DNA of 32,000 nucleotides from Gemmata obscuriglobus. Lineage in GTDB: Bacteria; Planctomycetota; Planctomycetia; Gemmatales; Gemmataceae. Shown piece by piece: positions 12,789 to 31,807 of this stretch; the stretch's first letter is position 1, and each line of letters opens with the position of its first letter. Where the stretch lies: assembly GCF_008065095.1 (NCBI RefSeq), contig NZ_CP042911.1, forward strand, positions 1,860,001-1,892,000. The letters are read 5' to 3'. A model generated the notes under the pieces. It saw only the letters and a list, made by a program, of their open reading frames with translations. It ran no database searches and had not been told where the DNA came from. Both the position numbers and the translations under genes were made by a program.

Positions 12789-12862
12789 GCGCCCGTAGCT
12801 CAACTGGACAGAGCATCCGCCTTCTAAGCGGAAGCGTGTGGGTTCGACTCCCACCGGGCGTA
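12789..12862 (+). tRNA. tRNA-Arg (anticodon TCT)
   Basis: Hand-folded cloverleaf. Acceptor GCGCCCG/CGGGCGT (G1:U72), D arm GCTC-AACTGGACA-GAGC, anticodon arm TCCGC-CTTCTAA-GCGGA, variable loop AGCGT, T arm GTGGG-TTCGACT-CCCAC, discriminator A. No CCA is encoded. Confidence 0.9.
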
Positions 12863-12874
12863 CTTTCCTCTTCC
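12815..12874 (+). repeat. attL-like copy of a 60-bp perfect direct repeat (tRNA positions 26-73 plus 12 nt)
   Basis: Identical to 31653-31712: atccgccttctaagcggaagcgtgtgggttcgactcccaccgggcgtactttcctcttcc. Confidence 0.9.
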
Positions 12875-12923
12875 CCTCCCGTCTCCTCTCGTTCGTCCTC
12901 TTTGCTTTGTTTTCAAGCATTTT

Positions 12924-12961
12924 GAGCGGCTGAGCGATTTCACTTACTTCCTCAGCCGCTC
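12924..12961 (+). terminator. Hairpin downstream of tRNA-Arg (11-bp stem, 16-nt loop)
   Basis: gagcggctgag...ctcagccgctc. It is homologous in sequence and position to the hairpin after the partial tRNA copy at 31754-31781. Confidence 0.35.
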
Positions 12962-13043
12962 CCGATGGTTTTCGCCCCTTCTCGCCTTCTGCTGCTCCCG
13001 CTGCTGCTCCCTGCTGCTCCCGATGACCGGATGCGCTCGGCCC

Positions 13044-13250
13044 GGGAAGGGCGAAACGAGCCACGGCTGCGGCGGTGTTCTGGAGGTTGACGTGCGCGTA
13101 CCGATCCATCGTCAGCGTAATTGTGGAGTGGCGGGCCAGTTCCTTCGCGTCCTGTGGTGCGACTCCCGCGCTTACCAAGTTGGTAATGAACGTGTGCCGC
13201 AAGGAATGGAAATCGGCTACTTCGTTCTCCCGGTTACGGTAGGCGAGGAA
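13044..13250 (-). pseudogene. Tyrosine recombinase (integrase) C-terminal catalytic fragment
   Basis: 'ADFHSLRHTFITNLVSAGVAPQDAKELARHSTITLTMDRYAHV' carries the box II H-x-x-R ... H ... Y motif. Everything upstream of it is missing. The frame continues without a stop through the antisense tRNA. Confidence 0.65.
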
Positions 13251-13890
13251 ACCGGTTCCGCCCGTCCGGCCCGATCGCCAGCTCGTGCAGCCGCATCTGC
13301 CCGAGCGTGTGCCGCAGTTCCCGGATCGGCCCGACCTCGGCCGGGTGCGCCCTCGCCCGCTCCCGGAACGTCTCGTCGTCGAGCGCCAGGGCGCCGCTCG
13401 GGAGCCGCGGCCACGCGATTCGCTTACGGGACAGGTACGCGGCCCACCGGTCCGCGGAGAACGTGAGCGGGCCGTCCCCGAGCAGCCGGTCCCCGGGGCC
13501 TATGAGGTCGGCGGCCCGGCGGATCACGTCCGGGTGGTGCTTGGGCCGCGGCGCCGGGTCGGGCTCGGCCAGCACCGCCCACAGCTTCGGCGCGTAATCC
13601 GCGTCGACGCCGGCCGGGTCGTACCCCGTCCCGATGCCCAGGTCCGGGAGTTCGCCCGCCAGTTCGCGCGCCCGCACGTCGAGCCCGGGCACGTCCAGGT
13701 GGTCCTTTCCCTCCCCGAGCAGCTTCTGCACCCGGGCCTCGGTCAGCCCGGTGGCCCGGCGCGCGGCCCGGATCGCGGCCAGTCGGTCGGCGGTCGCCTC
13801 GACCTCGAGGCGGTGCAGGTGCCCGGCCCGGTGCTGGGCGATCGCGCTCCTCGGACTGGTCGCGTCCAGTGTGGTCGGCGCGTACTTATA
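13234..13890 (-). pseudogene. Internal fragment of a family-A (PolI-like, phage/plasmid type) DNA polymerase
   Basis: From memory, 'WAAYLSRKRIAWPRLPSGALALDDETFRERARAHPAEVGPIRELRHTLGQMRLHELAIGPDGRNR' matches the region before the '..TGRN.PS' motif of mobile-element PolA proteins. The homology stops abruptly at about 13255, where the integrase fragment starts. Confidence 0.5.
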
Positions 13891-14212
13891 CTACCCGGAC
13901 CGCCGGCAGTGCTTTGAAGACATGAGGGGCGTTCACGCGGAAGCGGTCGTGGGCCCTCGCACGGGCAAGCGGGACGAGGCGATCCGGCACCTGGAGCACT
14001 GCGACCTGCTCACCCGCAAGCTCCAGGTGGGCGTGTACCTCCGCGACCTCTCGATCACCGGGGAGCAGGCGAAGGCGTCCGACGACCTGCGCGAGGAGCT
14101 GGAAGAGGTGCGCGACGCGCTCATCGCCCGCGACGCCGACGGCGCGCGGGCGCGGCTGCCGAAACTGGAGGCGGCGTACCGCGCCTGCCGGGACGCGTAT
14201 GTGACGCCGTAA
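13855..14212 (+). pseudogene. 3' fragment of a membrane-protein gene (TM helix plus helical C-terminal domain), N-terminus missing
   Basis: 'AIALLGLVASSVVGAYLYYPDRRQCFEDMRGVHAEAV...RKLQVGVYLRDL...LEAAYRACRDAYVTP*'. It converges on the PQQ-propeller gene. Upstream sequence belongs to the polymerase fragment on the other strand. Confidence 0.3.
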
Positions 14213-14218
14213 CGGCGG

Positions 14219-15442
14219 TCACTCGCCCAGGCACCACAGGTGCTTGTCGCCGCGGACGAACACGCGGCCGCCCGCCAGCGCGAGCGACGCGGCGGCGTCT
14301 TCGCCGAGCGGGTTCTTCGCGATCACCTCGAACTCGTCGGCCGCTTTCACCACCGTCGTGGTCCCGTCGAGGGCGGTGAAGTAGATCCGCCCGCCGGCCG
14401 CCACCGGCGACGGCCGCATCCGCCCGGCCCCGAGCCGCTCGCGCCACTTCTCCGCGCCGGTCTTCAGGTCCAGGCACGTCGCGGTGCCCTGGTCGTCGCT
14501 CACGAAGTACAGGTCGCCGACGACGACCGCCGAGGGCACGAACGGGCCGGTCTTCTTCGACTGCCAAAGTACCTTCGGTTGCGAGACGGTCAGATCGACC
14601 GCGAGCGTCGCCCCCGCCGGCCCGGACACCGCGAACAGCCGGCCCCCGCGCACGACCGGCGTGCAGGAGCAGAGCCGCTCCAGCCCGTCGAGGCTCCACC
14701 GCTCCTTGCCGGTGGCGAGGTCGTAGCCCTTGATCGTTTTCGTGCCGAGGCACACGGCCTGGCGGTCGCCGCCCACCGTCGCGACGACCGGCGTGGCCCA
14801 GTTGTCGTACACCCCGCGCCGCTCGGCCCTCCACTTGGTCTTTCCCGTCGTGAGGTCCGCCGCGAGCAGGTACGAGCCTTCCAGGTGATCGACCTGCACC
14901 AGCACCACACCGCCCGCGACGATCGGGGACGCGGCGATGCCGTAGTCGTTGCGGATCACGCCGTACTCCTTCGTCAGGGACCGCGCCCACAGCGGCTTGC
15001 CGGCGCGGTCGAGGACCACCAGGTCGCCGGTGCCGAACAGCGCGACCACGGCCTTATCGGTGACGGCCGCGGTACACGCCGCGTGCCCGCGCTCGGGCGG
15101 GAACATGCTGAACGGGGCGTCGGCCGGGGTCGCCGTCAGGTCGGTGCGCCACCGCTCCTGGCCGGTCGCCCGGTCGTAGCACAGGACGTGCAGTTCCGAG
15201 TGGTCGCGGCCGGACGACGCGGTCAGGATCACGTCGTCGCCGACCACGACCGGGCTGCTGTTGCCCGCGCCGGGGAGCTTTGCCTTCCAGCGCACGTTCG
15301 TGCCGGCCTTCCCGTCCCACTCGGTCGGGAACCCGGTTTCGGCGCTCACCCCGTCGGCGGTCGGGCCGCGCCACTGGGGCCAGTCGGCTGCGGCGCTGAG
15401 CGGCAGGAGCATTAGGGCGAGAATGACGAGCGCGCGGTTCAT
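14219..15442 (-). CDS. PQQ-like beta-propeller repeat protein (BamB/YfgL-like), secreted
   Basis: ATG at 15442 overlaps the upstream stop (ATGA). The signal peptide is '[27 protein letters not shown]', followed by repeated 'SSPVV.GD.V' / 'W...L' propeller blades. Confidence 0.85.
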   Translation of the reverse strand: MNRALVILALMLLPLSAAADWPQWRGPTADGVSAETGFPTEWDGKAGTNVRWKAKLPGAGNSSPVVVGDDVILTASSGRDHSELHVLCYDRATGQERWRTDLTATPADAPFSMFPPERGHAACTAAVTDKAVVALFGTGDLVVLDRAGKPLWARSLTKEYGVIRNDYGIAASPIVAGGVVLVQVDHLEGSYLLAADLTTGKTKWRAERRGVYDNWATPVVATVGGDRQAVCLGTKTIKGYDLATGKERWSLDGLERLCSCTPVVRGGRLFAVSGPAGATLAVDLTVSQPKVLWQSKKTGPFVPSAVVVGDLYFVSDDQGTATCLDLKTGAEKWRERLGAGRMRPSPVAAGGRIYFTALDGTTTVVKAADEFEVIAKNPLGEDAAASLALAGGRVFVRGDKHLWCLGE

Positions 15443-16557
15443 TTCTGGTCCCCCTGTTGCGTGAACGCGGCCGCACGGCCGTCCGACCCGACGAGGCGGA
15501 CGAGGAAGTCCCACTTCACCGGGGTGCTCGGCTTGCCGCGCACCTCTTCGGCCTTCGTTTTGGTGAGCTTGACCAGCACCACCGATTCCCCCGCGGGCAG
15601 CTCGACGGTCGCGCGGTACCGGTCCGGGCGGAACATGCTGCGGTACTCGCTCGCTCGCTCAGTCACCTTGTTGCCGTTCACCCAGACCGTGAGGTTGTCG
15701 ACGGCCGACGCCCGCAGTTCGACTTTCGCCGCGGCGGCCAGCTTCACCGTTGCGACGGCGTAAGCGACCGATCCGTCGTCCGGTTTGACGCCGAGCTTCA
15801 CGACATCGAGCCGCGCGTCGGCCGGGTCGTTCGCGGCCGGTTGCCACTTGAGCGTCCCGGCCTTGCCCTCGTAACCGGCCGCGAGGTCGATCTTCGCTTC
15901 CGGCGGGAACCCCTTCGTCAGCCCCTCGTCCGGCGACACCGGGAACGGCCCGACGACGTGCCACCGGCGGACGACGCCGAGGTGCGTGAGTACGTCCGGC
16001 TTGTCGCCGGCCGCGGTCAGCCGCTTCGCCACGAGCAGCGCCTGTTCGAGGTCGGTGGCCGCCGCGAACGTGGCCCGCAGGCTCTTCACCTGCTCCGCGG
16101 GGGCGGTGAGGGCGTCCGCGGCGGCGAGCCGGTCGGCGACCGCGTCCGGGCCGAACTCGGGGTCGCCGAGCCAGCCCGCGAGCCGCTTCGCGGTGGTGCC
16201 GGGTTGGCCCCGCTCGACGGCCGCGAGCGCCACCCGCCGGGCCTTACCGTGCCCCTTCGGATCGGACGCGAACGCGAGCAACTCGTCGGTCGGGAGCTTT
16301 GCGGGGTTCGCTTTGGCGATTTGGTCGAACGCGGTGCGGAGCCAGTTGGCCGCGACCGGGTCGTCGGCGGGCCACGCCTTCAGGAGCGGGAGCAGCGCCG
16401 GCGGCCCGGCCGCGACGACCCGGTCCCACGCGGCGCGGGTGGCCGCCGGGTCGGCGCCCGGCTTCGCGAGTGCCGCGACGTCGTCCGGCAGGGCGGCGCG
16501 CGCCGGCGCGCCGCACAGCAGGAGCAGAATCACACTGGTTCGGTACATGATGGTCAT
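15439..16557 (-). CDS. Secreted hypothetical protein (helical HEAT-like N-terminal half, beta-sandwich C-terminal half)
   Basis: Signal peptide '[18 protein letters not shown]'. The C-terminal 'WHVVGPFP...LKWQP...[11 protein letters not shown]...VVLVKLTK...WDFLVRL' resembles jelly-roll domains common in planctomycetes. There are ATGA overlaps at both ends. Confidence 0.7.
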
Positions 16558-17507
16558 TCCTCGACGTTGGGGAGGCCGTCGGACACGGCCATGAGCCGGT
16601 ACACGGCGTCCATGCTGGCGGACTCGCGGAGGAACCGCACGCTCCCGTCGGCCACGGCGATGTTCGCCCCGCCGCTATGGAAGCTGTACATGTTCACGCC
16701 CGCGTAGTTGGTGCAGTTGATGAGGCAGTTGCCGCCCCGCAGGGTGGCTCCGGTGTTGTCGGTCGGGATCGGGAGCAGCCGCACCCACGCGCCCAGGTGC
16801 CCGAACCCGGCCGCGTTGTTCGGGAACGTCGGGTGCGCGCGCCCGCCGCGGATCAGCCCCTGCCGCCACGCCGAGTTCTCCCCGAACGCGAGCGTGTTGC
16901 TCAGCCCGTCGGTCACGCCCGTCATCGTCACCTTCTCGGCCTGCTGGAGCAGCCCCTTGTCGCGCGGGTCGGACGCGCCCATCGGCGGCCGGGCCACGCT
17001 CAGCACCGGGGCGTACTCGACCAGGCACGCCGGGAACGAGTTGCCGGCCAGCGCGGTCGCGTCCGCCGAGAAGGACGCGGACGGCGGGAGGAACGTCTCC
17101 ACCGGCGCCCCGGTCGAGGACGGGCACTTGTACACCGGGAGCGGGGTCTGGACGAGCGTCCGGTTGGTGCCCTCGGCGTACCCGAGCCCCAGGTTCCACT
17201 GCTTGTACAGGTTGTCCTGTTCGACGTAGGGCAGGATCGCGAGCGTCCACGGCCGCTCGACGAACGTGCGGCCGTCGCTCGGGCGGGTGACGAGCGGGTT
17301 GTTCCGGGGGAACTCGTTGTTGGCGTCGTGGAACCCGTGGAGCGCCAGACCGAGTTGCTTGAGGTTGTTGGAGCACTTCATCCGCGCCGCGGCCTCGCGC
17401 ACCTTCTGGACCGCGGGCAGCAACAGGCCGATGAGGATCGCGATAATGGCGATCACCACCAGCAACTCGATCAGCGTGAAGCCACGGGGGCGATTGGGGT
17501 TCGGCAT
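16554..17507 (-). CDS. DUF1559 / H-X9-DG protein with prepilin-type N-terminal cleavage/methylation domain
   Basis: '[50 protein letters not shown]' at the N-terminus and '[18 protein letters not shown]' (H-x9-DG) at the C-terminus. Confidence 0.9.
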
Positions 17508-17541
17508 CGGTTCTCCATAATGGCAGTGGGGCGTTTGAGGG

Positions 17542-17991
17542 CTACTGGGGGCGCGACGGCCGGGTGACGATCGCGGCCTCGGGGACGGTGATTTCGAACG
17601 GTGGGAGGGCGTTGGCCTTCGGATCGACGCGGACCTTGAACGTGCTCGTCTCGGGCTTCGCGAACTTGCCCCCCAGTTTGTCCCACGCGCCGAGGTCGTT
17701 GCCCGACATCCACTCGAACGTGACCGTGTACTCGCCCGCGACGGCGCCGTCCTTGTCGCCGGTGGTCGATAGGTGAAACGTCCCGGACTCGTCGGTCATG
17801 CCGACCGGCGTTTTCAGGTTCCCGGGCAGCGACTGGTCCGCGTGCCGGAACTGGACGCGGACCAGCGGCGCGGGCTTGCCGTTCACCGTCACGGTCCCGA
17901 TGACAGGAAACTTCTCCGGCCCGGACGACCCGCAGCCGAGAGCGGAACAAGCCCAGACGGCGATCAGAACGTAGGCGAGCCGGACGCGCAT
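17542..17991 (-). CDS. Small lipoprotein with a carboxypeptidase-regulatory-like (Ig-like) domain
   Basis: ATG at 17991. Lipobox 'SALGC', then '[21 protein letters not shown]'. This is the usual partner gene downstream of DUF1559 genes. Confidence 0.75.
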
Positions 17992-18025
17992 GAGGTGCCC
18001 CGTCACTGGATGTTGAAGCGGAACA

Positions 18026-18056
18026 GAACCCGGCGGCCCCGTCGGCCGCCGGGTTC
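18026..18056 (-). terminator. 13-bp-stem hairpin after the DUF1559 gene 18066-18989
   Basis: gaacccggcggcc-ccgtc-ggccgccgggttc. On the minus strand it is followed by a T-containing 'ctgttccgcttc'. Confidence 0.5.
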
Positions 18057-18065
18057 GGACTCGTG

Positions 18066-18989
18066 CTACCAGTTGCCCGGCAGCACCTGCCCGTCGGCCG
18101 GGTTGAGCAGCAACCGCCACGTCGCCTCGGTCACGCCGGTGGACACCATCCGCACGCTCCCGTCGCACAGGCACACCCCGCACCCGCCGTCCTGCATCGC
18201 CTGGGGGCGGAAGAAGTCGCACTGCTGGAGCGTGGGCTTGTTCTGCGGGGGCAACCCGGACCCGTACCCGATGTGCGGCGACGCCGGCGCGTGGATCCCG
18301 AACGAGAAGCTCCACATGTGGATGAACCGGCCCGACTGCACGGCCCCGTTGAACGTCACCGAGCCGTCACCCGGGCACTGCGCGTAGTGCTCCGCGTACA
18401 TGACCGTGTTGGTCGTGCCGTCCGGGATCGAGGCCGTCAGGGTGGCCTTCCCGTCGCACACGGTGTTCACCCCCACCGCGCTGAACCCGCCGTACAGGTA
18501 CGCGGGGTCGGTCGGGTACGCGTACCGGCGGTTGCCGAACACCTGGAAGTTCGGGCCGTAGCTCGCGCCGCCGCCCTTCGTCCCGCCCGCCAGCGTCACG
18601 AACCCGTCCGGACTGGACCGGTCGAGCGGGCTGAAGAACGTCTTGATGAGGAGCTGGTTCAGGACGTAGCTGTTGCCCGCGGCCTGGGCCTGACGGGCCG
18701 CGTTCTCCTGCTCGACGTAGGGCAGGATCGCGTGGTACAGCGAGTAGAACTGGCGCGGGGTCGTGGTCGCGTCGTAGGTGCCCATCGCCGGGAACCGGGT
18801 GCTCGCGTCGTGGTACCCGTGCGTCGCCAGCCCGATCTGCTTCAGGTTGTTCATGCTCTGGGTGCGGGCCGCGGCCTCGCGCACCTTCTGGACCGCGGGG
18901 AGCAGCAGCCCGATGAGGATCGCGATGATCGCGATCACCACCAGCAGCTCGATCAGCGTGAACCCGCGGTGGCGGTCGGGACTCGACAT
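18066..18989 (-). CDS. DUF1559 prepilin-like protein (variant Q-X9-DG)
   Basis: '[50 protein letters not shown]' at the N-terminus. The C-terminal '[17 protein letters not shown]' has Gln where the paralogues have His. Confidence 0.9.
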
Positions 18990-19100
18990 TGCTTCTCCTC
19001 GGAAGGTACGGGTGTTTGGAGCTACTGGTGGCGCGACCGGCCGAGCGCCAATCGCGTCACCCGATTCATTTTATTACCGGGTTATATAATGAATTACTCG

Positions 19101-19129
19101 CGCCCCCGGCGAGACGATCGCCGGGGGCG
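19101..19129 (-). terminator. 12-bp-stem hairpin after the DUF1559 gene 19142-20179
   Basis: cgcccccggcga-gacga-tcgccgggggcg. On the minus strand it is followed by the AT-rich 'gagtaattcattatataac'. Confidence 0.5.
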
Positions 19130-19141
19130 ACCACTTCGCGG

Positions 19142-20179: not shown

Positions 20180-20255
20180 CAGGGGGCCATGTCCCAAGGG
20201 AGGCGCGCCGGCGGCGCCGGCGCGGGTACGAACACTGCGGGCGACGGGGCTTGGG

Positions 20256-21269: not shown

Positions 21270-21309
21270 GGATCACCTCTCAATTCGTGTGTGGGCGAGC
21301 GTTACGGGT

Positions 21310-22727: not shown

Positions 22728-22761
22728 GGGTACTATTCCTTGATGTTGGTGTTCCAGAAGG

Positions 22762-23785: not shown

Positions 23786-23829
23786 GAAGGGTGATCTCGT
23801 CGTGTTGGGTAGTCGGTGTGTGGGGACGA

Positions 23830-23853
23830 GGTCGGCGGGAAGCCCCGCCGACC
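23830..23853 (-). terminator. 10-bp-stem hairpin after the DUF1559 gene 23865-24947
   Basis: ggtcggcggg-aagc-cccgccgacc, 12 nt after the stop. Confidence 0.45.
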
Positions 23854-23864
23854 GACTGTGGACC

Positions 23865-24947: not shown

Positions 24948-25721
24948 GCCGTTGTGAGGGTCGGTGAAGCCACCCGCGCCGTTGGCATGGTGTGGGCGGG
25001 GCTTAATGGGGAACGGGGCAATCCGCATGGCGATCCGCTTCGAGTACACCGCGACAACGGTCCGACCGAGTCGGGCCGCGACCGCCTCGTCGGTGTCGGT
25101 GCCGAGGAGCATGACGTCCGCGGTCATCCACGGCCGGGGGGCTGTGGCCGGGCGGCGGAACGCCGGGATGTCCCGGCTGCACCGCTGCCACGTGACCGCC
25201 GCGGCGGTGCGCCCTAGTACCGCCGCGACCGCCTCGTCCAGATCGGTCCCGAGCAGTGCCAGTTCGTCGTCCCCCCACTTACGTTTGCCCCACGGTCCGG
25301 TACCCGCGGCCGCCACGGCCGGCGAGCGGCCGGTGCGGGCGCCGGCCCCGACCTTCACACGCGGGCGGCTCTGGAGCGCACGGGTGGCCGGGCTCAGGCG
25401 CTCGGGGCTGCCCACCCCGAACTCCCGCCGCCAGCAGGACACCGGTTTGAGGCTGACCCCGAGCCAGTACGCGACCGCCGCCGCCGCCTCGGTACGGACC
25501 GCCTGCTCCAGGCTGGCATCGACGAGCAGCCCCGGCCGCCCGCGGCCCCCGATCGGCTGGACCCGCGGCCACCGGATCGGGCCGGTGCCCCAACCGGTCA
25601 CCCGGCACCACGCCCGCCGGTACCGGCAGTAGACGCGATCTCCTTCGCGCACGGCCGGCGGTTCGTACCGGCCGACCAGCGGCGGAGCGCCCTCGGGGGC
25701 GTTCTGATGTGGTGTGCTCAC
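24948..25721 (-). CDS. HTH plus 2x SANT/Myb-like repeat protein; the ORF has no stop of its own and runs in frame into the DUF1559 gene
   Basis: GTG at 25721 overlaps the upstream stop (GTGA). There are two repeats, '[32 protein letters not shown]' and '[32 protein letters not shown]'. The N-terminal '[22 protein letters not shown]' is HTH-like. Third codon positions are strongly G/C. Confidence 0.55.
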
Positions 25722-26455
25722 GGCGCCACCGCCTTCCCCGGTGCCGGCAGCCGCTGCTCGCTTAGCGCCAGCTCGTGCAGGAGGGTGGCGGTGTCGGCGA
25801 ACGGCTCGGAGCCGGTGTTCGCCCACCGCACCCGCCGGTCCCGGCCGATCACGAACGTGCCGTGCGCCTGCCACTTCGGCAGGTCACCGGCCGCCGGGCG
25901 GAACACGCCGTACCGGGCCGCGGCGGTCCGGTCGGGGTCGCTCAGCACCGGGAAGTGGAACGCCCCGTACTCGGCGTACCGCTCGCGGGTCTTCGCCGGC
26001 GCGTCCGGGCTCACCGCCACTACCGCGGCGCCCAGCTCGGTGAAGTACCGCAAGTCCTTCTCGATCCCGAACAGTTGGGCCACGCAGTGGTCGCACGAGT
26101 AGCCGTAGTAGAACACCAGCACCACCGGGCCGCGCGCGGCCAGGTCGCCCAGGTCCGTCGGCCGGTCGTCGGTTCCGGTGAGCGCGAACAGCGGGGCGGG
26201 TTGGTTCACGAGCGGGTGGGGCTCGGTCGGCACCGGGGGCTTCGGCGGGGCGGCGAGCAGCGCCTGGAGCGGACCTGACAGCGGCTCGACCTGCTTCGCA
26301 CGCAGGTACTCGGCCGCGTCCCGGGCCACGTTCGGCTCGGGGGCGGGCTCGGAGGGCGGCGCGGCGCGGCCCGCGCACCCGGCGACGAGGGCGGCGCTCA
26401 GGAGCAGGGCCGCACGCCCGGCCGGCGGGGGGGCTTTAATCTGGTTGAGGTTCAC
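25718..26455 (-). CDS. Thioredoxin-fold lipoprotein (AhpC/TSA-redoxin family, CxxC)
   Basis: GTG at 26455 overlaps the upstream stop (GTGA). Lipobox 'LVAGC'. '[18 protein letters not shown]' is the redox-active motif, followed by 'FPVLSDPD'. Confidence 0.8.
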
Positions 26456-27000
26456 GACTGTGTTTCCGAATTCTGGGTTGTTGCCGGCGCCCGCCGCACG
26501 CGCCACCACAGGGCGAGCGCGACCGCGGGGCCGAGAAAAGCGACTGCGCCGGCGAGCGCCAGCCGCACGCCCCACGGCACCGTGGGCGGCGCCGGTGAAG
26601 CGGGCGGGGCGGGGCGGCGCACGGGTTGACAGCACTCGACGGCGCCGAGCACCGGCGCGCGGGCCGGTGTCACTGTGCCGCCGTCCGAAACGGTGAGCGG
26701 GATTGGGGCGGATGCCCCGAACCCGAAGTCGAACACCACCTGACAATCGTCGCGCCCGGCCGGCCGCGGGAACGTCCCCCGCCCGGTCGGCCCGGTCTCC
26801 CCCGTCGCCCACACCGTGGCCCCGACGAGCACGGTCACGCGCGCGTCGGCGACGGGCCGTCCGTTCCGCTCGACGACGAACTCGACCCACCCGCCCGCGA
26901 GCGTGAACGACGCTTCGGGCGGTGCCGGCGCGGCGGGGCCGGCCGCGGAGAGCGGGGCGCAAGCGGCCAGGAGGACGAGCGCGAGTGCGGCGCGGCACAT
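26452..27000 (-). CDS. Hypothetical envelope protein: signal/lipobox, carboxypeptidase-regulatory-like domain, C-terminal TM anchor
   Basis: ATG at 27000 has GGAG upstream. 'LLAAC', then 'VADARVTVLVGATVWATGETGPTGRGTF', then the C-terminal 'WGVRLALAGAVAFLGPAVALALWW'. Confidence 0.65.
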   Translation of the reverse strand: MCRAALALVLLAACAPLSAAGPAAPAPPEASFTLAGGWVEFVVERNGRPVADARVTVLVGATVWATGETGPTGRGTFPRPAGRDDCQVVFDFGFGASAPIPLTVSDGGTVTPARAPVLGAVECCQPVRRPAPPASPAPPTVPWGVRLALAGAVAFLGPAVALALWWRVRRAPATTQNSETQS

Positions 27001-27026
27001 GGGAGGCTCCGGGGGCAGGGGCGCGG

Positions 27027-27899
27027 TCAGGCGGACTTCACTTTGAGGTCGCCGAGGTCGAGCGTCGCGCCCGCCTCGACCGTGATCGGTTGCCCGAACC
27101 GGCCCGCGGTGCCGCCCTTGAACCCGAGCGTCTCCTGCCACACGGCGAGCCGCACCTTGCCGGCCGGCGCCAGCTTGATCTCGAACCGCCCGTCCGGCCC
27201 GGTGAGCGCGAAGTACGGGTGGTCGAACACCCGCAGGTACGCCTTCTCCCACGGGTGCGGGGCACACGAGAACGGCACCGGGATGCGCTCCGCCTTCAGC
27301 TTCTCGAACCGGACCTCCGAGCCCTTCGGCATGGCCCGGTTCCCGTCCCCGTTGTTCTCGCTCGACCAGGCCAGCGAGTGGAAAATCGGGGACGTGTTCT
27401 TGACCACCAGCGTCTGCCCGGCGCGGAGCGCCAGCGCGTGCGGGCGGTAGCCCATCGGCTCCTGGTCCATTACGACCTCGGTCGCCTTCACCTCCTTAAG
27501 GTCGGCATGCACCTGGAGCGGCTCCGGGTCGCGGGCGGTGGAGTCCGGGCGGAGCCAGACGAAGACGTGCTGGAGGGCCTTCGACTTCGGGTCGATGACC
27601 CAGTCCTCGTAGTAGACTTTGCCTTTCGAGGTGAAGAACTTGAGATCGTCGCTCAGGAGCTTGAGCTTCTCGAAGTCCACCTCGCGGCGCTCGGGCGGCT
27701 TCTCCGCGTCGTCCCAGACGACGCGCCCCTTCACGGTGCCCCAGTCGCCCGCGGGGGCCTTCGGGTCGGCGGCGAGTGCCACCCGGTCGGGCCACAGCAC
27801 CTCGTGGGTGAGCAGCGCGCCGAGGGCGGACGCGAGCGCGAGTTCGCGGAGGGCCTGCCGACGGTCGGGGAAGTGGTCCTGCGGTTTCTCGATGTTCAT
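27027..27899 (-). CDS. Tat-signal protein with a cupredoxin-like domain plus a carboxypeptidase-regulatory-like domain (MauL-like architecture)
   Basis: ATG at 27899. The twin-arginine signal is 'DRRQALRELALASALGALL'. 'GQTLVVKNTSPIFHSL...FSCAPHPWEKAYLRVFDHPYFALTGPDGRFEIKLAPAGKVRLAVWQE' follows. Confidence 0.75.
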   Translation of the reverse strand: MNIEKPQDHFPDRRQALRELALASALGALLTHEVLWPDRVALAADPKAPAGDWGTVKGRVVWDDAEKPPERREVDFEKLKLLSDDLKFFTSKGKVYYEDWVIDPKSKALQHVFVWLRPDSTARDPEPLQVHADLKEVKATEVVMDQEPMGYRPHALALRAGQTLVVKNTSPIFHSLAWSSENNGDGNRAMPKGSEVRFEKLKAERIPVPFSCAPHPWEKAYLRVFDHPYFALTGPDGRFEIKLAPAGKVRLAVWQETLGFKGGTAGRFGQPITVEAGATLDLGDLKVKSA

Positions 27900-27908
27900 G
27901 CGTGTTAC

Positions 27909-27952
27909 CGTGTGTGTGTGCGTGCGTGCACCGACGCGCGTGCGTGCGTGTG
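27909..27952. repeat. Two alternating pyrimidine-purine tracts (23 nt and 19 nt), including (TG)5
   Basis: cgtgtgtgtgtgcgtgcgtgcac at 27909-27931 and acgcgcgtgcgtgcgtgtg at 27934-27952, immediately upstream of the 27899 start. Confidence 0.8.
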
Positions 27953-28140
27953 GTGGCAGCGACCGCCGCGTGGGCGGTCGGAGTGATTGGGTGACGGCGC
28001 GGGAACCGACGATCGAACGTGCGCGGGACACTTACGCGGTCTCGGCGCGCGCGGCCCTTGGGGCAACGCGCGGCACGGCGCGGGACGCGCGTGCGCGGAC
28101 CTACGGCACGACGTTCGGGCGCGGGTTCAGCGGGTGGGGA

Positions 28141-28842
28141 TCAGGACGCGCGCGGGGGCGGCGTCGGCGGGACGTGGGGAACGGCAACGGCCCGGTCGGA
28201 GAGTGGGGCCGGGAAGCGGTCGGGCTCCGGCGGGTCGGCGAAAACGGTGGGCGTATCAGGGACGAACGAGGGGTCGTGCAGGAACAGACCGGCGGGTCCC
28301 TGGCCGCGGCACTTCTGGGCGTACACCCCGACCACCCACCGAACACCCGACCGATCCGGTGCCGGGGTTTCGTGGCACGGCTTCGGGCCGCGGTTCACCG
28401 CGGCCGACTTGGTGGGACACGAGGCGCAATCGCGGGCGGCTTCCGCTTCGCACGGTGCCTTCTCGGCGTAGCACGCGGGCGCCGCCTTGAGCTTCGAACA
28501 GCAGGACGGTGCGGGAGCGGGCTCGGGTTCCGAGCAGCACGCCTTCTTCTTTTTCGGCGCAGCGGGCTGCGACTGGCGGGACTCGACCAGCGGACGCACG
28601 TGGGCCGGCGGCTCGACCCCGTTCTCCTCGGCCCACAGGAGCTTCTCCTCAAGGGTGAAGCAGCAACAGTCGCCCTTCCAGCACTCGTCCGACGTGAGGC
28701 ACCCGCACGGGCGGGTCTGGCACGGGTACGGGGTGCCGTCGCCCTTCTTCCGCGGTGTCGGCAGCGGGAAGCCGAACGTGGTCAGCAGGTGGCACACCAG
28801 TGCCGCCGCCGCCAGCCCGCGCCCCCCGAACCCGATCCGCAT
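28141..28842 (-). CDS. Cysteine-rich hypothetical protein with an N-terminal hydrophobic segment
   Basis: ATG at 28842. I count 18 Cys in 233 aa, in clusters: 'PCQTRPCGCLTSDECWKGDCCCF', 'ACCSE', 'SCCSK', 'DCASC'. I recall similar proteins in planctomycetes, but no function. Confidence 0.7.
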   Translation of the reverse strand: MRIGFGGRGLAAAALVCHLLTTFGFPLPTPRKKGDGTPYPCQTRPCGCLTSDECWKGDCCCFTLEEKLLWAEENGVEPPAHVRPLVESRQSQPAAPKKKKACCSEPEPAPAPSCCSKLKAAPACYAEKAPCEAEAARDCASCPTKSAAVNRGPKPCHETPAPDRSGVRWVVGVYAQKCRGQGPAGLFLHDPSFVPDTPTVFADPPEPDRFPAPLSDRAVAVPHVPPTPPPRAS

Positions 28843-28918
28843 CTGTAACGCCCCGCACGGAGTGATTAACGGTATCGTCTTACGCCCTTCGCCCGTTGGT
28901 TGCCAGTGCCACGCCCGC

Positions 28919-29336
28919 TCATCCGGTGCACGGCTTGCCGGGCGGCGCGGGTTCCAGTGCGACCAGCACCGGGCGGTGGTCAGACACTAGCCGCCCATCA
29001 ATCACCGCGGCGCTGCGCACTCGGAACCGTTCGGCGGGCCTGAACAGAACGTAATCGATCTGCTACTTTGACTGTACGCCAGAATCGTGAGAAACCGTTG
29101 CCTATCGCGCCGGCCCGTGTCGCGGTGAGCGCGGCAAACGCCTTGCTGTTCGCAGTGCTGTTCAGATCGCTGGCCAAGATCACCGGGCGATCAACGCCGG
29201 CGAATAACTCGTCCCGTTTCGCCGCCCGCCGCCCGCCGCCCGCCGCCCGCCGCCCGCCGCCCGCGGCGATGTGGGCCAGGTGCGTGGCGATGAGTGATAG
29301 GTTGCGACCATCGTTTTTAATATATTTAAACGACAA
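28919..29336 (-). pseudogene. Endonuclease/exonuclease/phosphatase (EEP) family remnant: N-terminus missing, internal stop or frameshift
   Basis: 'LSLIATHLAH...RPVILASDLNS' is in one frame. 'QIDYVLFRPAERFRVRSAAVIDGRLVSDHRPVLVAL' is in another, preceded by TAG at 29063-29065. The ORF begins abruptly at the AT-rich patch. Confidence 0.6.
29221..29262. repeat. (GCCGCCC)x6 heptanucleotide microsatellite
   Basis: Six exact tandem copies, translated in the EEP remnant as AAGGGRRAAGGGRR. Confidence 0.95.
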
Positions 29337-29548
29337 AGATTTCTTTGAGTCATGATTTTTAATGATCTGCTCGGTCCGAAGTTGACCAGGGTTTATCCTT
29401 GGGCTTACCTTGGGTAGGAGAGGTGCATTCCCACGTGTTGGCTGTAACCGGACTAGTCACGATTCACGATTGATAGGCTTTCATAACTATTAATGTGTTA
29501 ATTTTATTTTAAACTATAATTTATTAATTATAAATTTTAAAGCGGACG
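29337..29548. other. Sharply AT-rich patch in a GC-rich genome
   Basis: Examples are 'ttaatgtgttaattttattttaaactataatttattaattataaattttaaag'. It contains the short direct repeats 'cacgatt cacgatt' (about 29456-29470) and 'ccttggg' x2 (about 29396-29418). It abuts the truncated EEP gene and the 3' end of the 29514-30080 gene. Confidence 0.8.
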
Positions 29549-30080
29549 ATAGCTCGGCGACTAAAGATTGTGCCGTCTTGAGCCTGTGCTCTGCGTTTCC
29601 ACTTCGCTGAACGTATTCGCGCGCCTCGGCGTCGGTGAAACCACAGGCCGTGGCTTCGTCGTCGGCCACTTCGAGCGTCGCGTTCCCGGGCGCGACCGTC
29701 TCGCACACCCCCGGGTCCAACTGCTCGGCCGCACAGAACTGGTCCCACGCTTCGCCGTGAACCCGGACCAGATACCCGTACAGTCGCGCCGCGTCCCGCA
29801 GTCGTGTCGCCAACGGCTCGGTCGCAGAATCGGCCAGCGCGGACGTTTTGAAGAACAGCGCGGCCAGCTCGAGCCGCTCCATCCGGTGCTGACCGAACAC
29901 GGCCAGAAAAGCGAGTGCCCGGCCGAACGTGTCCGGCACGCGCCACGTTTCCCACGGGGCCGCGGCCACCACCCGCGCGTGCTCCACGTCGTCGCCCCGC
30001 GCGCCGGCCGCCATCAGCAGCGACAGCCGTTCGGCCGCAGACAGCGTCGCGTAATGCTTCGAGAGGGATTTGGTGTTCAC
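29514..30080 (-). CDS. Hypothetical protein (right-arm module, gene 4)
   Basis: GTG at 30080 overlaps the upstream stop (GTGA). The 188-aa product has G/C-rich third positions, and its last codons run into the AT-rich patch. I recognise no domain. Confidence 0.6.
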   Translation of the reverse strand: MNTKSLSKHYATLSAAERLSLLMAAGARGDDVEHARVVAAAPWETWRVPDTFGRALAFLAVFGQHRMERLELAALFFKTSALADSATEPLATRLRDAARLYGYLVRVHGEAWDQFCAAEQLDPGVCETVAPGNATLEVADDEATACGFTDAEAREYVQRSGNAEHRLKTAQSLVAELSSALKFIINKL

Positions 30081-30400
30081 GACGTGCTCTCCGCGCGGTG
30101 CTTCAAGGCCGCTTCCAGGGCCTCGAGTCGGGCCGCGACGTTGCCGGCCTCGATCGCCCGCAGCGCCACCCCGGCCAGGAACCCGACCGCTCTTGCCTTC
30201 TCCAACGTGCCCGCCTCCGCATCCGCGCGGACCGCAGTGACCTGCTCTTCCAACAGGTCGATCACGTCTTGCGCGGTCTGGAGCCGGAACGTGATCGGGA
30301 TTGCGGATGTACGCGGGGTTGTACACGTGTCGCCGGCGCGGCGCGTGCGCCGGTACTCGCGCTGGTAATCCCTCGCTCGATCGGGGCTCGAGAACGGCAC
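30077..30400 (-). CDS. Hypothetical small helical protein (right-arm module, gene 3)
   Basis: GTG at 30400. 'RDYQREYRRTRRAG...LEKARAVGFLAGVALRAIEAGNVAARLEALEAAL' is Arg-rich at the N-terminus and coiled-coil-like at the C-terminus. It resembles small proteins I have seen in planctomycete/myxobacterial mobile regions. Confidence 0.6.
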   Translation of the reverse strand: MPFSSPDRARDYQREYRRTRRAGDTCTTPRTSAIPITFRLQTAQDVIDLLEEQVTAVRADAEAGTLEKARAVGFLAGVALRAIEAGNVAARLEALEAALKHRAESTS

Positions 30401-30410
30401 GGTACAGCCC

Positions 30411-31457
30411 TCAGTTCGGTTCAGGGATCGCCCCGGCTGGCGCCAAACCCGGCTGAGACGAGGACCGGGTGCCGGGTACGGGCGCCCGCACCTCGCCGGG
30501 CGCGGCTCCGTTCACGACGGTTTGATTGGCGGCAAGGTTCAGTTGGGCCAGGAGCGCGGGGGCCTTGAGTTGCCGCACCTTTGCCAGTTCGCGGACCGCA
30601 TCGGTGAACCGCTTCTGCCCGCGTGTCAGCATCCGGTCGAGGTGCTCACGGTCCTGCAGACGGGTCGGCGGGCGCACCGCCAGTTCCAGTTCCAGCGCGT
30701 GAACGGTGAGCCACCCGTTTATCACCCGGCGCGCGAGCAGCTCTTCGAGTACGGTCGGGTTGTCGCCCAGCACCTGGGCGCGGAGCGCGACGACCTTTTC
30801 GGTGATCCCGGCTTCCCACACGGGATCGTCGCCCGCGGCTGTGCGGATCAGTTGCACCGTGGCCTGGCGCCCCAGATCCCCGAGCCAGTTGGACCAACCC
30901 CGCGACCGGACCAGCGCCGCCACCTGGGCCTTCGCGCCCGAGTCGCCGGTTCGGGCCTTGGCGAACAACTCGACCGCTTCCGCGTCGTTGTTCGGCGCTC
31001 GGTATTCGATCAGTGGGTTCCGCTTCTCGACGCGCTCCTTCAGATTCGCCAGCGTATCCCGCAGTTCTTGCAACTGCCGTTTCATGCGCCACTCCCCGCG
31101 GTGGTGTCGGTGGAACCCGAGCGCCTCCAGTACCCCATACGCGACCGCACGCAGCACCCCGTTCGCCTCAGCCGTTGCAGTCAACAGCGCCGCAAACCGC
31201 GCCCGGGTCCGGTCCCGTTCCTCGCGCTCCCGCCGGCGCACTTGGGCGGCGGCTTCCGTCTGCTCGACGAGCACGGCGCCCATCGCGTCGCCGAGTCCGA
31301 ACGGGTCCCGACTGGCGACGTACTCCTTGACCGGCTTCCCGTTCACCCGGCGGTTGCGGTACAGGTACCAGCGCCCGCCGTGTCGCAACTCCCACCCCAT
31401 TGATGCGCCTCGGCGTGTACTACGGAACGAACCATTGCCCCGCTCACGGGTGGTCAA
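30411..31457 (-). CDS. Hypothetical protein (right-arm module, gene 2)
   Basis: TTG at 31457 overlaps the upstream stop (TTGA). An alternative ATG at 31400 gives 'MGWELRHGGRWYLYRNRRVNGKPVKEYV'. I recognise no domain. Confidence 0.6.
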   Translation of the reverse strand: MTTRERGNGSFRSTRRGASMGWELRHGGRWYLYRNRRVNGKPVKEYVASRDPFGLGDAMGAVLVEQTEAAAQVRRREREERDRTRARFAALLTATAEANGVLRAVAYGVLEALGFHRHHRGEWRMKRQLQELRDTLANLKERVEKRNPLIEYRAPNNDAEAVELFAKARTGDSGAKAQVAALVRSRGWSNWLGDLGRQATVQLIRTAAGDDPVWEAGITEKVVALRAQVLGDNPTVLEELLARRVINGWLTVHALELELAVRPPTRLQDREHLDRMLTRGQKRFTDAVRELAKVRQLKAPALLAQLNLAANQTVVNGAAPGEVRAPVPGTRSSSQPGLAPAGAIPEPN

Positions 31458-31636
31458 TGCGGTGCGGCTGGGATTTCAGTTGTGGTGCCGACGAGTGCGA
31501 GAATGGCCCGCTTGATCGGGTCGGGCAAGTTCGCCCACGCCGTGACGACCCGAGCGAGTTCAGGATCAGTGGGGTTGCTGCTCCCGGTGCTGCTCCGGAA
31601 GTCGTCCGATGTGCCGATGTCGTTGCTTTTCAACAC
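31454..31636 (-). CDS. Hypothetical 60-aa protein (right-arm module, gene 1)
   Basis: GTG at 31636, 17 nt inside the element from the att core. The motif is 'DPELARVVTAWANLPDPIKRAILALV'. Confidence 0.45.
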   Translation of the reverse strand: MLKSNDIGTSDDFRSSTGSSNPTDPELARVVTAWANLPDPIKRAILALVGTTTEIPAAPH

Positions 31637-31652
31637 GTTGGGAGAATTGGCA

Positions 31653-31712
31653 ATCCGCCTTCTAAGCGGAAGCGTGTGGGTTCGACTCCCACCGGGCGTA
31701 CTTTCCTCTTCC
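31653..31712 (+). repeat. attR-like partial tRNA-Arg copy (3' 48 nt plus 12 nt)
   Basis: It is a perfect 60/60 match to 12815-12874. The 5' half of the tRNA is absent (upstream sequence 'ggagaattggca' is unrelated). Confidence 0.9.
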
Positions 31713-31753
31713 GGCGCCGTCCCCGCTCGTTTGGCTTGGCTTCAACCATTTCG

Positions 31754-31781
31754 AGCGGATGAGCCGCGCCGCTCATCCGCT
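31754..31781 (+). terminator. Hairpin downstream of the partial tRNA copy (11-bp stem, 6-nt loop)
   Basis: agcggatgagc-cgcgcc-gctcatccgct. The flanking 'ttcaaccatttcgagcgg' is homologous to 'ttcaagcattttgagcgg' at 12912-12929. Confidence 0.35.
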
Positions 31782-31807
31782 TACCCGTATCACGCCGCCG
31801 GTGCTTG

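What the first reader, a model, noticed from the sequence alone, without database searches (positions are those of the whole stretch)
12789..31712. 60-bp perfect direct repeat of the tRNA-Arg(UCU) 3' half brackets about 18.9 kb (attL/attR signature)
The intact tRNA at 12789-12862 and the segment at 31653-31712 share 60 identical bases. These run from tRNA position 26 through the anticodon arm and 3' end, plus 12 nt downstream, in direct orientation. This is the classic scar of a tyrosine-integrase element inserted in a tRNA gene. An integrase catalytic fragment sits immediately inside attL. The sequences just outside the core are also about 70% similar in both copies (ttcaagcattttgagcggctgagc versus ttcaaccatttcgagcggatgagc, each forming a hairpin). 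A simple attP x attB event does not predict that. It suggests the element's attP region itself derives from a homologous tRNA locus, or that a local duplication occurred.
Basis: partly seen in the sequence, partly recalled or inferred. Interest (0 to 1): 0.7.

Follow-up and report, generated by a model that had tools for sequence, protein, structure and literature searches.

The report
Decayed genomic island in tRNA-Arg gene
An 18.9-kb stretch of the Gemmata obscuriglobus chromosome is the worn-out remnant of a mobile DNA element that inserted into a tRNA-Arg gene, which is a well-known kind of event, though the element family is undescribed and recurs across Gemmata relatives.

Summary
tRNA-Arg(TCT) lies at 12789-12863, and its last 48 nt plus 12 downstream nt (12815-12874) recur exactly at 31653-31712 in direct orientation. 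There are only two copies.

The integration reading is supported by independent evidence:
- A tyrosine-integrase C-terminal remnant (13092-13250, minus strand) sits just inside attL.
- Beside it is an internal fragment of a family-A DNA polymerase gene.
- G. algarum JC673 has the same tRNA followed by a full-length integrase, and the same right end next to a tRNA-Arg fragment.
- The right-end gene p329 (30411-31400) belongs to a Gemmataceae-wide family. Close homologues sit about 290-440 nt from 3' fragments of other tRNAs (Pro, Ser and others).
- A 9-mer, TGCTGCTCC, is clustered in both att arms (5 of 6 window copies, 0.17 expected) at offsets conserved in JC673.

The element is a relic. About 70% of the integrase catalytic domain is deleted, and the interior (about 13.9-29.5 kb) is lineage-specific, host-like cargo.

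No empty site was found, because both outer flanks are rearranged in relatives. The extra similarity outside the core is real (0 of 2000 shuffles), but its origin is unresolved.

Verdict: an ordinary kind of feature from a new element family. Interest is low to moderate.

The parts
12789..12863 (+). Intact tRNA-Arg(TCT). It is the regenerated integration target: host 5' part plus element-supplied 3' part.
   Evidence: ARAGORN. The same tRNA is present in G. algarum JC673, L002 2241-2315.
12815..12874 (+). attL copy of the 60-nt identity block: anticodon stem-loop to the 3' end of the tRNA, plus 12 nt.
   Evidence: Exact match to 31653-31712.
12875..12960 (+). Element left arm (P'). A pyrimidine-rich tract is followed by a hairpin at 12923-12958, which lies between the convergent tRNA and integrase genes. 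It is likely a replacement terminator.
   Evidence: Hairpin -27 kcal/mol, z = -4.85. The sequence is conserved at attL of JC673.
12990..13020 (+). Three tandem copies of TGCTGCTCC (spacing 12 and 10 nt). Candidate arm-type recombinase-binding sites in the P' arm.
   Evidence: The window has 6 copies against 0.17 expected, and 5 of them lie in the att arms. JC673 has the same offsets from the core.
13092..13250 (-). Tyrosine integrase pseudogene. Only about the last 57 residues of the catalytic domain remain (HxxR, His, catalytic Tyr). The open frame then continues antisense through the tRNA.
   Evidence: PHROG integrase E = 3.6e-14. Pfam positions 132-169 of 172. Motif coordinates. It is 94% identical at the protein level to the C-terminus of the full-length JC673 integrase, and homology stops at about 13270.
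13252..13806 (-). Internal fragment of a family-A DNA polymerase gene, corresponding to about residues 267-455 of a 748-aa homologue. It is fused by deletion to the integrase remnant.
   Evidence: 738 homologues were found. The full-length ones (575-750 aa) carry Pfam DNA_pol_A immediately after the matched stretch. tblastx against L015.
13949..29513 (-). Lineage-specific cargo, almost all on the minus strand:
- a PQQ-like beta-propeller;
- p369;
- five DUF1559/N-methyl paralogues with small partner proteins;
- a YHS-DJ-1/PfpI protein;
- a PepSY_TM protein;
- an AhpC/TSA protein;
- p290;
- the Cys-rich p233;
- a lower-GC intergenic region at about 28.9-29.5 kb.
   Evidence: Pfam. p369 has only 43 homologues, and none is named from the other sequenced Gemmata genomes. 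The sub-cluster DUF1559-p373-PQQ lies in an ordinary chromosomal context in a metagenome contig. Homology with L099 ends at 29605.
29514..31400 (-). Conserved right-end module: p188 (29514-30080), p107 (30077-30400) and p329 (30411-31400). All three have unknown function.
   Evidence: p329 has about 150 homologues across Gemmataceae, with several copies per genome. p329-p107-p188 are linked in L024, L031, L034 and L099. No Pfam, NCBIfam, PHROG or structural match was found.
31401..31652 (+). Element right arm (P). It holds two tandem TGCTGCTCC copies at 31576-31596 and the p329 upstream region.
   Evidence: It is 94% identical to JC673 L001 18-396. The architecture is the same in other loci, each with its own tandem repeats.
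31653..31712 (+). attR: the displaced 3' fragment of tRNA-Arg(TCT) (48 nt) plus 12 nt.
   Evidence: ARAGORN does not call it as a tRNA.
31713..31807 (+). Outer flank. Its hairpin at 31752-31783 is about 80% similar to the element's left arm. The flank ends at the stop codon of the convergent serine-hydrolase (beta-lactamase family) gene.
   Evidence: Synteny with JC673 and G. massiliana stops exactly at the stop codon, 31808.

Best explanation
**What it is.** The window comes from Gemmata obscuriglobus. Positions 12815-31712 are a relic genomic island, produced when a tyrosine-integrase element recombined its attP with the 3' half of the tRNA-Arg(TCT) gene.

**How integration worked.** The crossover lay in or near the anticodon stem-loop. 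The element supplied a new tRNA 3' half plus a terminator-like hairpin, which regenerated a complete tRNA at attL. The original 3' half was displaced 18.8 kb away to attR.

**The ancestral element (inferred).** It belonged to a Gemmataceae family. On one side of attP it carried PolA, a small protein, a possible excisionase-like HTH protein and Int. On the other side it carried p329, p107 and p188. Tandem 9-mers in both arms probably served as arm-type binding sites.

**What happened in G. obscuriglobus.**
- A deletion of about 2.6 kb (inferred size) fused mid-PolA to the last third of the Int catalytic domain.
- The rest of the replication module is gone.
- The interior is now about 15 kb of lineage-specific, host-like genes for envelope, redox and metal functions.
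- The island can no longer excise by itself.

**Shown versus inferred.**
- Shown: the repeat, the remnants, the intact orthologue in JC673, the recurrent architecture and the motif clustering.
- Inferred: the crossover position, the function of the arm sites, the terminator role of the hairpin and the order of decay events.
For: - **Repeat and tRNA.** Exact 60-nt direct repeat and a single full tRNA.
- **Integrase.** A remnant lies inside attL. JC673 has the same tRNA followed by a full-length integrase (Pfam positions 3-169 of 172) preceded by a p137 homologue.
- **Polymerase.** The PolA fragment is identified. Contig L015 shows the order PolA, p137, HTH_17-like gene, Int.
- **Right end.** The JC673 right end is 94% identical and abuts a tRNA-Arg fragment. 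A third lineage, L099, has the same right module at a tRNA-Arg fragment with different cargo.
- **Recurrence at other tRNAs.** Close p329 homologues lie 290-440 nt from 3' fragments of other tRNAs. These include tRNA-Ser(CGA), a fragment whose anticodon loop reads as tRNA-Pro, and others. There are 9 strict T-arm hits in 37 kb of upstream sequence against 21 in 925 kb of background.
- **attP-like junction.** L019 reads Int C-terminus, hairpin, tRNA-Ser fragment, repeats, p329. This is either attP or a tandem junction.
- **Arm motif.** TGCTGCTCC is enriched in both arms at offsets conserved in JC673.
- **Cargo.** The cargo gene p369 is absent from the sequenced relatives.
Against: - **No empty site.** None was recovered. 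In JC673 and G. massiliana the serine-hydrolase orthologue is followed by a Ham1p-like gene with no tRNA. Left-flank synteny with JC673 ends about 370 nt upstream of the tRNA, close to an IS3 element.
- **Composition.** It barely differs from the flanks.
- **Cargo genes.** They look like ordinary Gemmataceae chromosomal genes. The interior may not have arrived with the element.
- **Mobility.** No excision or circular-junction data exist.
- **Sampling.** All G. obscuriglobus assemblies found are the same strain, so there is no polymorphism information.
Confidence: 0.85

Rival explanations
1. The island is real, but the flank just outside attR (31713-31807) is not the native DNA downstream of the tRNA. 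It would be the last about 95 nt of the left arm of an older element of the same family. That element was already resident at tRNA-Arg as part of a tandem array. Its remainder was lost in a deletion or rearrangement that ended at the serine-hydrolase stop codon. This would explain the roughly 80% similarity outside the core.
For: - The similarity covers exactly the element's left-arm features, the pyrimidine tract and the hairpin.
- Synteny with relatives breaks at 31808, and no relative has a tRNA there.
- The outer attR flank in JC673 also begins with about 28 nt resembling the element's left arm, then diverges.
- Tandem arrangements exist in this family's neighbourhood. In L012 and L014 a different integrase follows the displaced fragment.
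- The JC673 serine-hydrolase terminator region is an unrelated palindrome.
Against: - Only 95 nt remain, with no integrase or arm-motif trace to identify an element.
- In other loci the displaced fragment is followed by a canonical hairpin plus T-run. That looks like a native tRNA terminator, so a hairpin here is also expected of native DNA.
Confidence: 0.35
2. The flank 31713-31807 is native host DNA, namely the tRNA-Arg terminator. The element's attP carries a homologous copy of the tRNA 3' half plus its downstream terminator. That copy was captured from, or homogenised with, the tRNA-Arg locus of a related Gemmata. The element therefore restores both the tRNA and its terminator on integration.
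For: - The 60-nt block extends 12 nt beyond the tRNA, and similarity decays gradually after it.
- The two hairpin stems differ by a compensated change.
- The left-arm hairpin is element-borne and conserved in JC673.
- Native terminator hairpins follow the displaced fragments in other loci.
Against: - The two supposed native flanks, in G. obscuriglobus and JC673, share only about 17-28 nt. Neighbouring DNA in the two species is 87-94% identical, so at least one flank is not ancestral.
- No unoccupied site is available to test the idea.
Confidence: 0.45
3. There was no integration. The repeat would be left over from a segmental or tandem duplication of the tRNA-Arg region, followed by decay of one copy. 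The integrase-like sequence would be coincidental.
For: - Similarity extends beyond the tRNA on the 3' side.
- There is a marginal resemblance upstream of the core (57 of 2000 shuffles).
- The cargo looks host-like.
Against: - The copy begins precisely at the anticodon stem and lacks the 5' 26 nt.
- An integrase remnant abuts attL, and the orthologue in JC673 is intact.
- The DNA inside attR is a conserved module that sits beside fragments of different tRNAs in other genomes.
- Arm-motif clusters flank both copies.
Confidence: 0.03

Closest known systems
tRNA/tmRNA-gene genomic islands as mapped by Islander/TIGER (PMC4383910; PMC12424338)
   Same: - A tyrosine-integrase element sits in the 3' part of a tRNA gene.
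- The tRNA is regenerated at one end, next to the integrase gene.
- A displaced 3' fragment lies in direct orientation at the other end.
- The identity block runs from the anticodon stem-loop past the 3' end of the tRNA.
   Different: - The integrase is reduced to about 57 residues, so standard detection that requires an integrase gene may miss the island.
- The interior has been replaced by lineage-specific, host-like cargo.
- No unoccupied site is known.
Lambda-type (heterobivalent) integrase attP sites with arm-type binding sites. This comparison rests on my own knowledge of the lambda and P4 literature.
   Same: Short direct repeats are clustered in both arms at fixed distances from the core: three copies in the arm next to the integrase gene and two in the other arm.
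   Different: - Binding has not been shown.
- The three P'-arm copies lie inside the open frame that extends the integrase C-terminus.
- The protein that reads them is unknown. It could be Int, or p329, whose model has an N-terminal three-stranded sheet.
Self-replicating integrative elements that encode their own DNA polymerase, such as pipolins (piPolB plus a tyrosine recombinase, often in tRNA genes). This is recalled from memory and was not tested.
   Same: An integrative element at a tRNA gene, bounded by direct repeats, that carries a DNA polymerase gene beside its recombinase.
   Different: - The polymerase here is family A, not primer-independent family B.
- Only a fragment survives in this window.
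- No homology to pipolin genes was tested or seen.
Temperate phages with a family-A polymerase and tRNA-targeting integrases. This is recalled from memory.
   Same: Int and PolA lie side by side, next to an attP that overlaps a tRNA 3' end.
   Different: No capsid, terminase, portal or tail genes were detected among the ORFs tested here or in the related contigs.

Membership tests
tRNA-integrated genomic island (Islander definition) | A complete tRNA or tmRNA gene at one end | tested here: met
   tRNA-Arg(TCT) at 12789-12863.
tRNA-integrated genomic island (Islander definition) | A displaced 3' fragment of the same tRNA gene, in direct orientation, at the other end | tested here: met
   Exact 60-nt repeat 12815-12874 = 31653-31712. 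It covers 48 nt of tRNA, and the 5' 26 nt are missing.
tRNA-integrated genomic island (Islander definition) | An integrase gene inside the island, near the tRNA end | tested here: inconclusive
   Only a C-terminal pseudogene remnant is present (PHROG E = 3.6e-14; Pfam 19.1 bits, below the 27.1 cut-off). The orthologous position in JC673 holds a full-length integrase. The island therefore qualifies as a relic, not as an active element.
tRNA-integrated genomic island (Islander definition) | Variable presence, meaning an unoccupied target in related genomes | tested here: inconclusive
   No empty site was found, and the outer flanks are not syntenic in JC673 or G. massiliana. The cargo does vary between lineages.
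Active integrative element | A full-length catalytic recombinase (Arg, Lys, His, Arg, His/Trp, Tyr) and detectable excision | tested here: not met
   Homology to the JC673 integrase starts at about residue 423 of its 582-residue ORF, so box I Arg and the Lys are deleted. Excision cannot be tested with these tools.
Heterobivalent integrase attP | Arm-type repeat clusters on both sides of the core | tested here: met
   TGCTGCTCC occurs three times at 12990-13020 and twice at 31576-31596. The window holds 6 copies against 0.17 expected, and the offsets are the same in JC673. Protein binding was not tested.
Prophage | Virion structural and packaging genes | tested here: not met
   PHROG scans of the unannotated ORFs returned only integrase families. 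Pfam assigns the remaining ORFs to cellular families.
Integrative conjugative or mobilisable element | Relaxase, coupling protein or type IV secretion genes | tested here: not met
   None appear among the Pfam results for the ORFs scanned between the repeats.
Family-A DNA polymerase gene | The DNA_pol_A catalytic (palm and fingers) domain | tested here: not met
   The fragment matches only the region just upstream of PF00476 in full-length homologues, so the catalytic domain is deleted.

The most novel reading that the evidence does not exclude
Int, PolA and p329 would define an undescribed, Gemmataceae-wide family of self-replicating, tRNA-targeting integrative elements. In this reading p329 is a new kind of att-arm-binding factor, either a directionality factor or a replication initiator. 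It is a 300-aa protein with no detectable relatives outside the family, and its model has an N-terminal three-stranded sheet. It would read the element-specific tandem repeats that co-vary between elements next to its own gene.
Probability: 0.2. Interest if true: 0.5.

Novelty: new member of a known kind. Interest (0 to 1): 0.3.

Why it matters
Mobile elements of Planctomycetes are poorly catalogued, and genetic tools for Gemmata are scarce.

- **Site-specific integration system.** This locus and its intact counterpart in G. algarum JC673 point to a native system: an integrase, an attP with candidate arm sites, and tRNA-Arg(TCT) as attB.
- **Annotation marker.** The p329 gene could serve to map island ends across Gemmataceae genomes.
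- **Pattern of decay.** The att ends are retained, the integrase is truncated and the interior is swapped. The cluster of DUF1559, redox and metal-related genes is therefore accessory DNA.
- **General biology.** The mechanism is textbook and nothing here challenges it.

Tried and rejected
1. **Genome-collection scan with the 48-nt tRNA 3' half**. It returned only JC673 and did not return G. obscuriglobus itself.
2. **Empty-site search through serine-hydrolase orthologues**. The orthologues in JC673 and G. massiliana have no adjacent tRNA, so the predicted empty site does not exist there.
3. **Function of p329.** Pfam, NCBIfam and PHROGs gave nothing. The AlphaFold model has mean pLDDT 70. Foldseek against PDB and viral models gave no match better than E = 0.04.
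4. **PolA fragment.** Pfam, PHROG, NCBIfam and PDB sequence searches all gave nothing. It was identified only through the exhaustive representative search, followed by Pfam on the full-length hits.
5. **Composition.** GC content and dinucleotide signature separate the island from the flanks only weakly, so this is inconclusive.
6. **False tRNA call.** The ARAGORN 'tRNA-Gly' of 100 nt in L014 lies inside a coding region and was discarded.
7. **Distant p329 homologues (27-40% identity).** These are usually not adjacent to a tRNA fragment, so the p329-at-attR rule holds only for the close, Gemmataceae subfamily. In L064 the gene lies 4 kb inside a 12.4-kb element bounded by a 49-nt tRNA-Pro repeat.
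8. **Terminator and promoter scan around attR.** It found nothing.
9. **Literature search.** No description of this island or element family was found.

Full report
**1. Observation**

ARAGORN finds a single tRNA in the window, tRNA-Arg(TCT) at 12789-12863 on the + strand. The repeat finder and a direct string comparison show that 12815-12874 and 31653-31712 are identical over 60 nt, in direct orientation, with only these two copies in the window. The block covers tRNA positions 27-74, from the anticodon stem-loop to the discriminator base, plus 12 nt downstream.

A scan of one genome per species (185,579 species) for the 48-nt tRNA part returned two loci only, both from Gemmata algarum JC673. 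One is a full tRNA-Arg and one is a fragment. The 60-mer is therefore not a dispersed repeat.

**2. Source and gene map**

Exact protein look-ups place the window in Gemmata obscuriglobus (ABGO01000007.1; CP025958.1 at about 6.12-6.14 Mb).

Left of the tRNA lie:
- GluRS, a PfkB kinase and LigT;
- an IS3-family insertion sequence, with orfA and orfB at 11021-12149 and inverted repeats at 10956-10968 and 12181-12193.

Right of attR, a beta-lactamase-family serine hydrolase converges on the repeat. Its stop codon is at 31808-31810.

Between the repeats nearly all genes are on the minus strand:
- a PQQ-like beta-propeller;
- p369;
- five DUF1559/N-methyl paralogues;
- a YHS-DJ-1/PfpI protein;
- a PepSY_TM protein;
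- an AhpC/TSA protein;
- several proteins with no family assignment.

**3. Mobile-element remnants inside attL**

Reading the minus strand from 13250 down to 13092 gives FLAYRN...HSLRHTF...ARHSTITLTMDRYAH. This is the C-terminal box of a tyrosine recombinase, including the catalytic Tyr. It matches PHROG integrase families at E = 3.6e-14 and Pfam Phage_integrase positions 132-169 of 172.

Directly upstream, in another frame, 13252-13806 encodes an internal piece of a family-A DNA polymerase. The exhaustive representative search found 738 homologues. The full-length ones (575-750 aa) carry PF00476 immediately after the stretch that matches the window.

A metagenomic contig, L015, shows the intact gene order: p376, HTH_17, p212, PolA (748 aa), p137, an HTH_17-like p98, Int.

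**4. The orthologous element in G. algarum JC673**

In JC673 the same tRNA-Arg (L002 2241-2315) is followed, in the same convergent arrangement, by a full-length integrase. The Pfam domain covers positions 3-169 of 172. A p137 homologue precedes it.

Nucleotide homology with the window (87%) runs from about 370 nt upstream of the tRNA to window position about 13270, then stops. I infer that G. obscuriglobus lost roughly 2.6 kb (the PolA C-terminal half, p137, the small HTH gene and the first 70% of Int) in a single deletion.

The JC673 fragment copy (L001 397-444) is preceded by 396 nt that are 94% identical to window 31263-31652. Both element ends are therefore shared between the two species.

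A third lineage, Logan contig L099, also starts in a tRNA-Arg fragment. It is 82% identical to window 31682-29605 (p329, p107, p188) and then diverges into different cargo, a GDPD gene and a DUF1559 gene. The conserved right module thus ends near 29.6 kb.

**5. The right-end gene marks island ends in other genomes**

p329 (30411-31400, minus strand) has about 150 homologues across Gemmata, Frigoriglobus, Urbifossiella and uncultured relatives. There are up to three copies in one genome.

In G. massiliana, Gemmata sp. SH-PL17 and F. tundricola, an alignment of the 400 nt upstream of each homologue revealed a reverse-complemented tRNA T-arm and acceptor end about 290 nt from the start codon. The tRNA differs in each genome. 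In F. tundricola the segment is the 3' part of tRNA-Ser(CGA), starting at the anticodon stem. ARAGORN calls no tRNA at these places, so they are fragments.

A metagenome scan with the p329 alignment gave 80 more loci. A strict T-arm test found 9 hits on the expected strand in 37 kb of upstream sequence, against 21 in 925 kb of background. The positives are among the close homologues (at least 48% identity): L019, L020, L023, L026 and L027. Six close homologues were negative.

Each positive locus has:
- a hairpin just beyond the tRNA 3' end;
- its own pair of tandem 10-12-nt repeats between the fragment and p329.

L019 reads Int C-terminus, hairpin, tRNA-Ser fragment, repeats, p329. This is the arrangement expected of attP or of a tandem junction.

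More distant homologues sit close to an integrase and a full tRNA:
- L051, within 4.1 kb of tRNA-His;
- L090, next to tRNA-Ser;
- L064, inside a 12.4-kb element bounded by a 49-nt tRNA-Pro repeat.

In these loci the gene is not at the element edge.

**6. Candidate arm sites**

TGCTGCTCC occurs six times in the window against 0.17 expected. Five of these lie in the att arms, all on the + strand: 12990, 13002 and 13012 (175-197 nt after the core start), and 31576 and 31588 (77 and 65 nt before it). JC673 has exact copies at the same offsets, although the surrounding DNA is only 87-94% identical. This is the layout of arm-type sites in lambda-like attP (from my own knowledge). Binding is untested.

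**7. Cargo**

p369 has only 43 homologues. None is named from JC673, G. massiliana, SH-PL17 or G18. The best are 67-75% identical, from metagenomes, and Tuwongella reaches 58%.

In a metagenome-assembled contig the DUF1559-p373-PQQ trio lies in an ordinary chromosomal neighbourhood. That neighbourhood holds PepSY_TM, CobW and ribosomal S4 and S18 paralogue genes.

GC content and dinucleotide signature differ little from the flanks. The interior is therefore accessory and lineage-specific, and it comes from a compositionally similar source. Whether it entered with the element or later cannot be decided.

**8. Outer flanks and the empty site**

The serine-hydrolase orthologues in JC673 (94% identical) and G. 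massiliana (80%) are followed by a Ham1p-like gene. In G. massiliana an acyltransferase gene lies between the two. No tRNA is adjacent in either genome.

Alignment with JC673 stops exactly at the stop codon, window 31808. The intergenic DNA in JC673 is an unrelated long palindrome.

On the left, synteny with JC673 ends at 12422, near the IS3. No empty site was obtained, and the block from the tRNA to attR sits between rearrangement breakpoints relative to the nearest genome.

**9. Similarity outside the core**

12879-12935 aligns with 31717-31764. The score is 23.5 against 8.9 +/- 1.5, and 0 of 2000 shuffles reach it. Both segments end in stable hairpins with nearly the same stem. The attL version is element-borne, because JC673 has it at attL.

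Two explanations remain:
- The attR flank is the native tRNA terminator, and attP carries a homologous copy.
- The flank is the stub of an older tandem element of the same family.

The outer attR flank in JC673 shares only about 28 nt with the element arm and has no such hairpin, so at least one of the two flanks is not ancestral. I put the native-flank reading at 0.45 and the tandem-stub reading at 0.35.

**10. Comparison and verdict**

This is the classic anatomy of a genomic island in a tRNA gene: a regenerated target plus a displaced fragment (PMC4383910, seen). It fails the tests for an active element because the integrase is truncated. It also fails the tests for a prophage and for a conjugative element.

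The element family (Int, PolA, p329) did not appear in the literature searched. p329 has no detectable relatives of known function.

I rate it a new member of a known kind, with interest about 0.3.

Noticed in passing
window 12339-13250 (minus strand); L002 578-2326; L051 3418-4953; L019 3-398: The integrase reading frame has no stop after the catalytic Tyr. It runs on for about 85-100 codons, through the arm repeats and the hairpin, and in the window, JC673 and L051 it continues antisense across the tRNA. If translated, the tail would differ between the integrated and the excised form.
   Followed up: partly
L012 8280-9518 and L014 9059-9912: In G. massiliana and F. tundricola a second, different tyrosine integrase lies immediately downstream of the displaced tRNA fragment, in the tRNA's direction. 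This suggests tandem accretion of unrelated islands at the same tRNA genes.
   Followed up: partly
L012 and L013, about 11.0-20.9 kb: G. massiliana and SH-PL17 share the same genes downstream of their p329 homologues (EF-hand peptide, catalase, zinc-type alcohol dehydrogenase). The adjacent tRNA fragments differ. Either the same cargo sits at different targets or the fragments have diverged.
   Followed up: no
window 6555-6643: A perfect 39-nt inverted repeat with an 11-nt spacer lies between the MaoC-like and GluRS genes. Part of it recurs at 85% identity in an unrelated JC673 locus (L001 5369-5415). It may be a dispersed palindromic repeat. JC673 also has a long palindrome after its serine-hydrolase gene (L010 6105-6220).
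   Followed up: no
window 3600-5400: A low-GC patch (0.51-0.56, against about 0.68 around it) contains an ORF at 4194-4853 (219 aa) with no Pfam match. It could be a small foreign insertion.
   Followed up: no
window 42-3629: A 1195-aa ORF is built from tandem repeats of 171/342 nt and about 153 nt at 66-86% identity, which suggests a repetitive surface protein. The JC673 attR flank carries a 1208-aa cadherin/SdrD-type adhesin that is not orthologous.
   Followed up: no
window 10955-12195: An IS3-family insertion sequence (orfA with HTH_Tnp_1, orfB with rve, inverted repeats TATAGTGGACCCC / GGGGTCCACTGTA) lies about 600 nt upstream of the tRNA. It is close to the point where synteny with JC673 ends (12422).
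   Followed up: partly
window about 29249 (L006-L009): Logan contigs from at least 20 sequencing runs all start at window position 29249, in the lower-GC intergenic region upstream of p233, and run into the p233, p290, AhpC and DUF1559 genes. This could be a transcript 5' end, if the runs are RNA-seq, or a recurrent assembly break.
   Followed up: no
window 16554-25874: There are five DUF1559/N-terminal-methylation paralogues, 66-82% identical to the reference copy over a 209-nt repeat at their 5' ends. Three of them are followed by a small gene: p149 (a putative lipoprotein), p147 and p130. They are interleaved with redox and metal-related genes (YHS-DJ-1, PepSY_TM, AhpC/TSA). A related cluster in a metagenome contig (L017) sits with CobW and ribosomal S4 and S18 paralogue genes, which hints at a metal-limitation regulon.
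   Followed up: partly
window 12740-12765 vs 31600-31625: Short shared motifs (CGATGTCG, GATGTG) lie just upstream of the core, in the host left flank and in the element right arm. The similarity is marginal (57 of 2000 shuffles) and may be chance.
   Followed up: partly
L099 400-1056: In the SRR5240885 relative the p329 gene appears interrupted by an in-frame stop after about 45 codons, and the gene is called from a later start (218 aa). This suggests decay of the right-end module in that lineage too.
   Followed up: no
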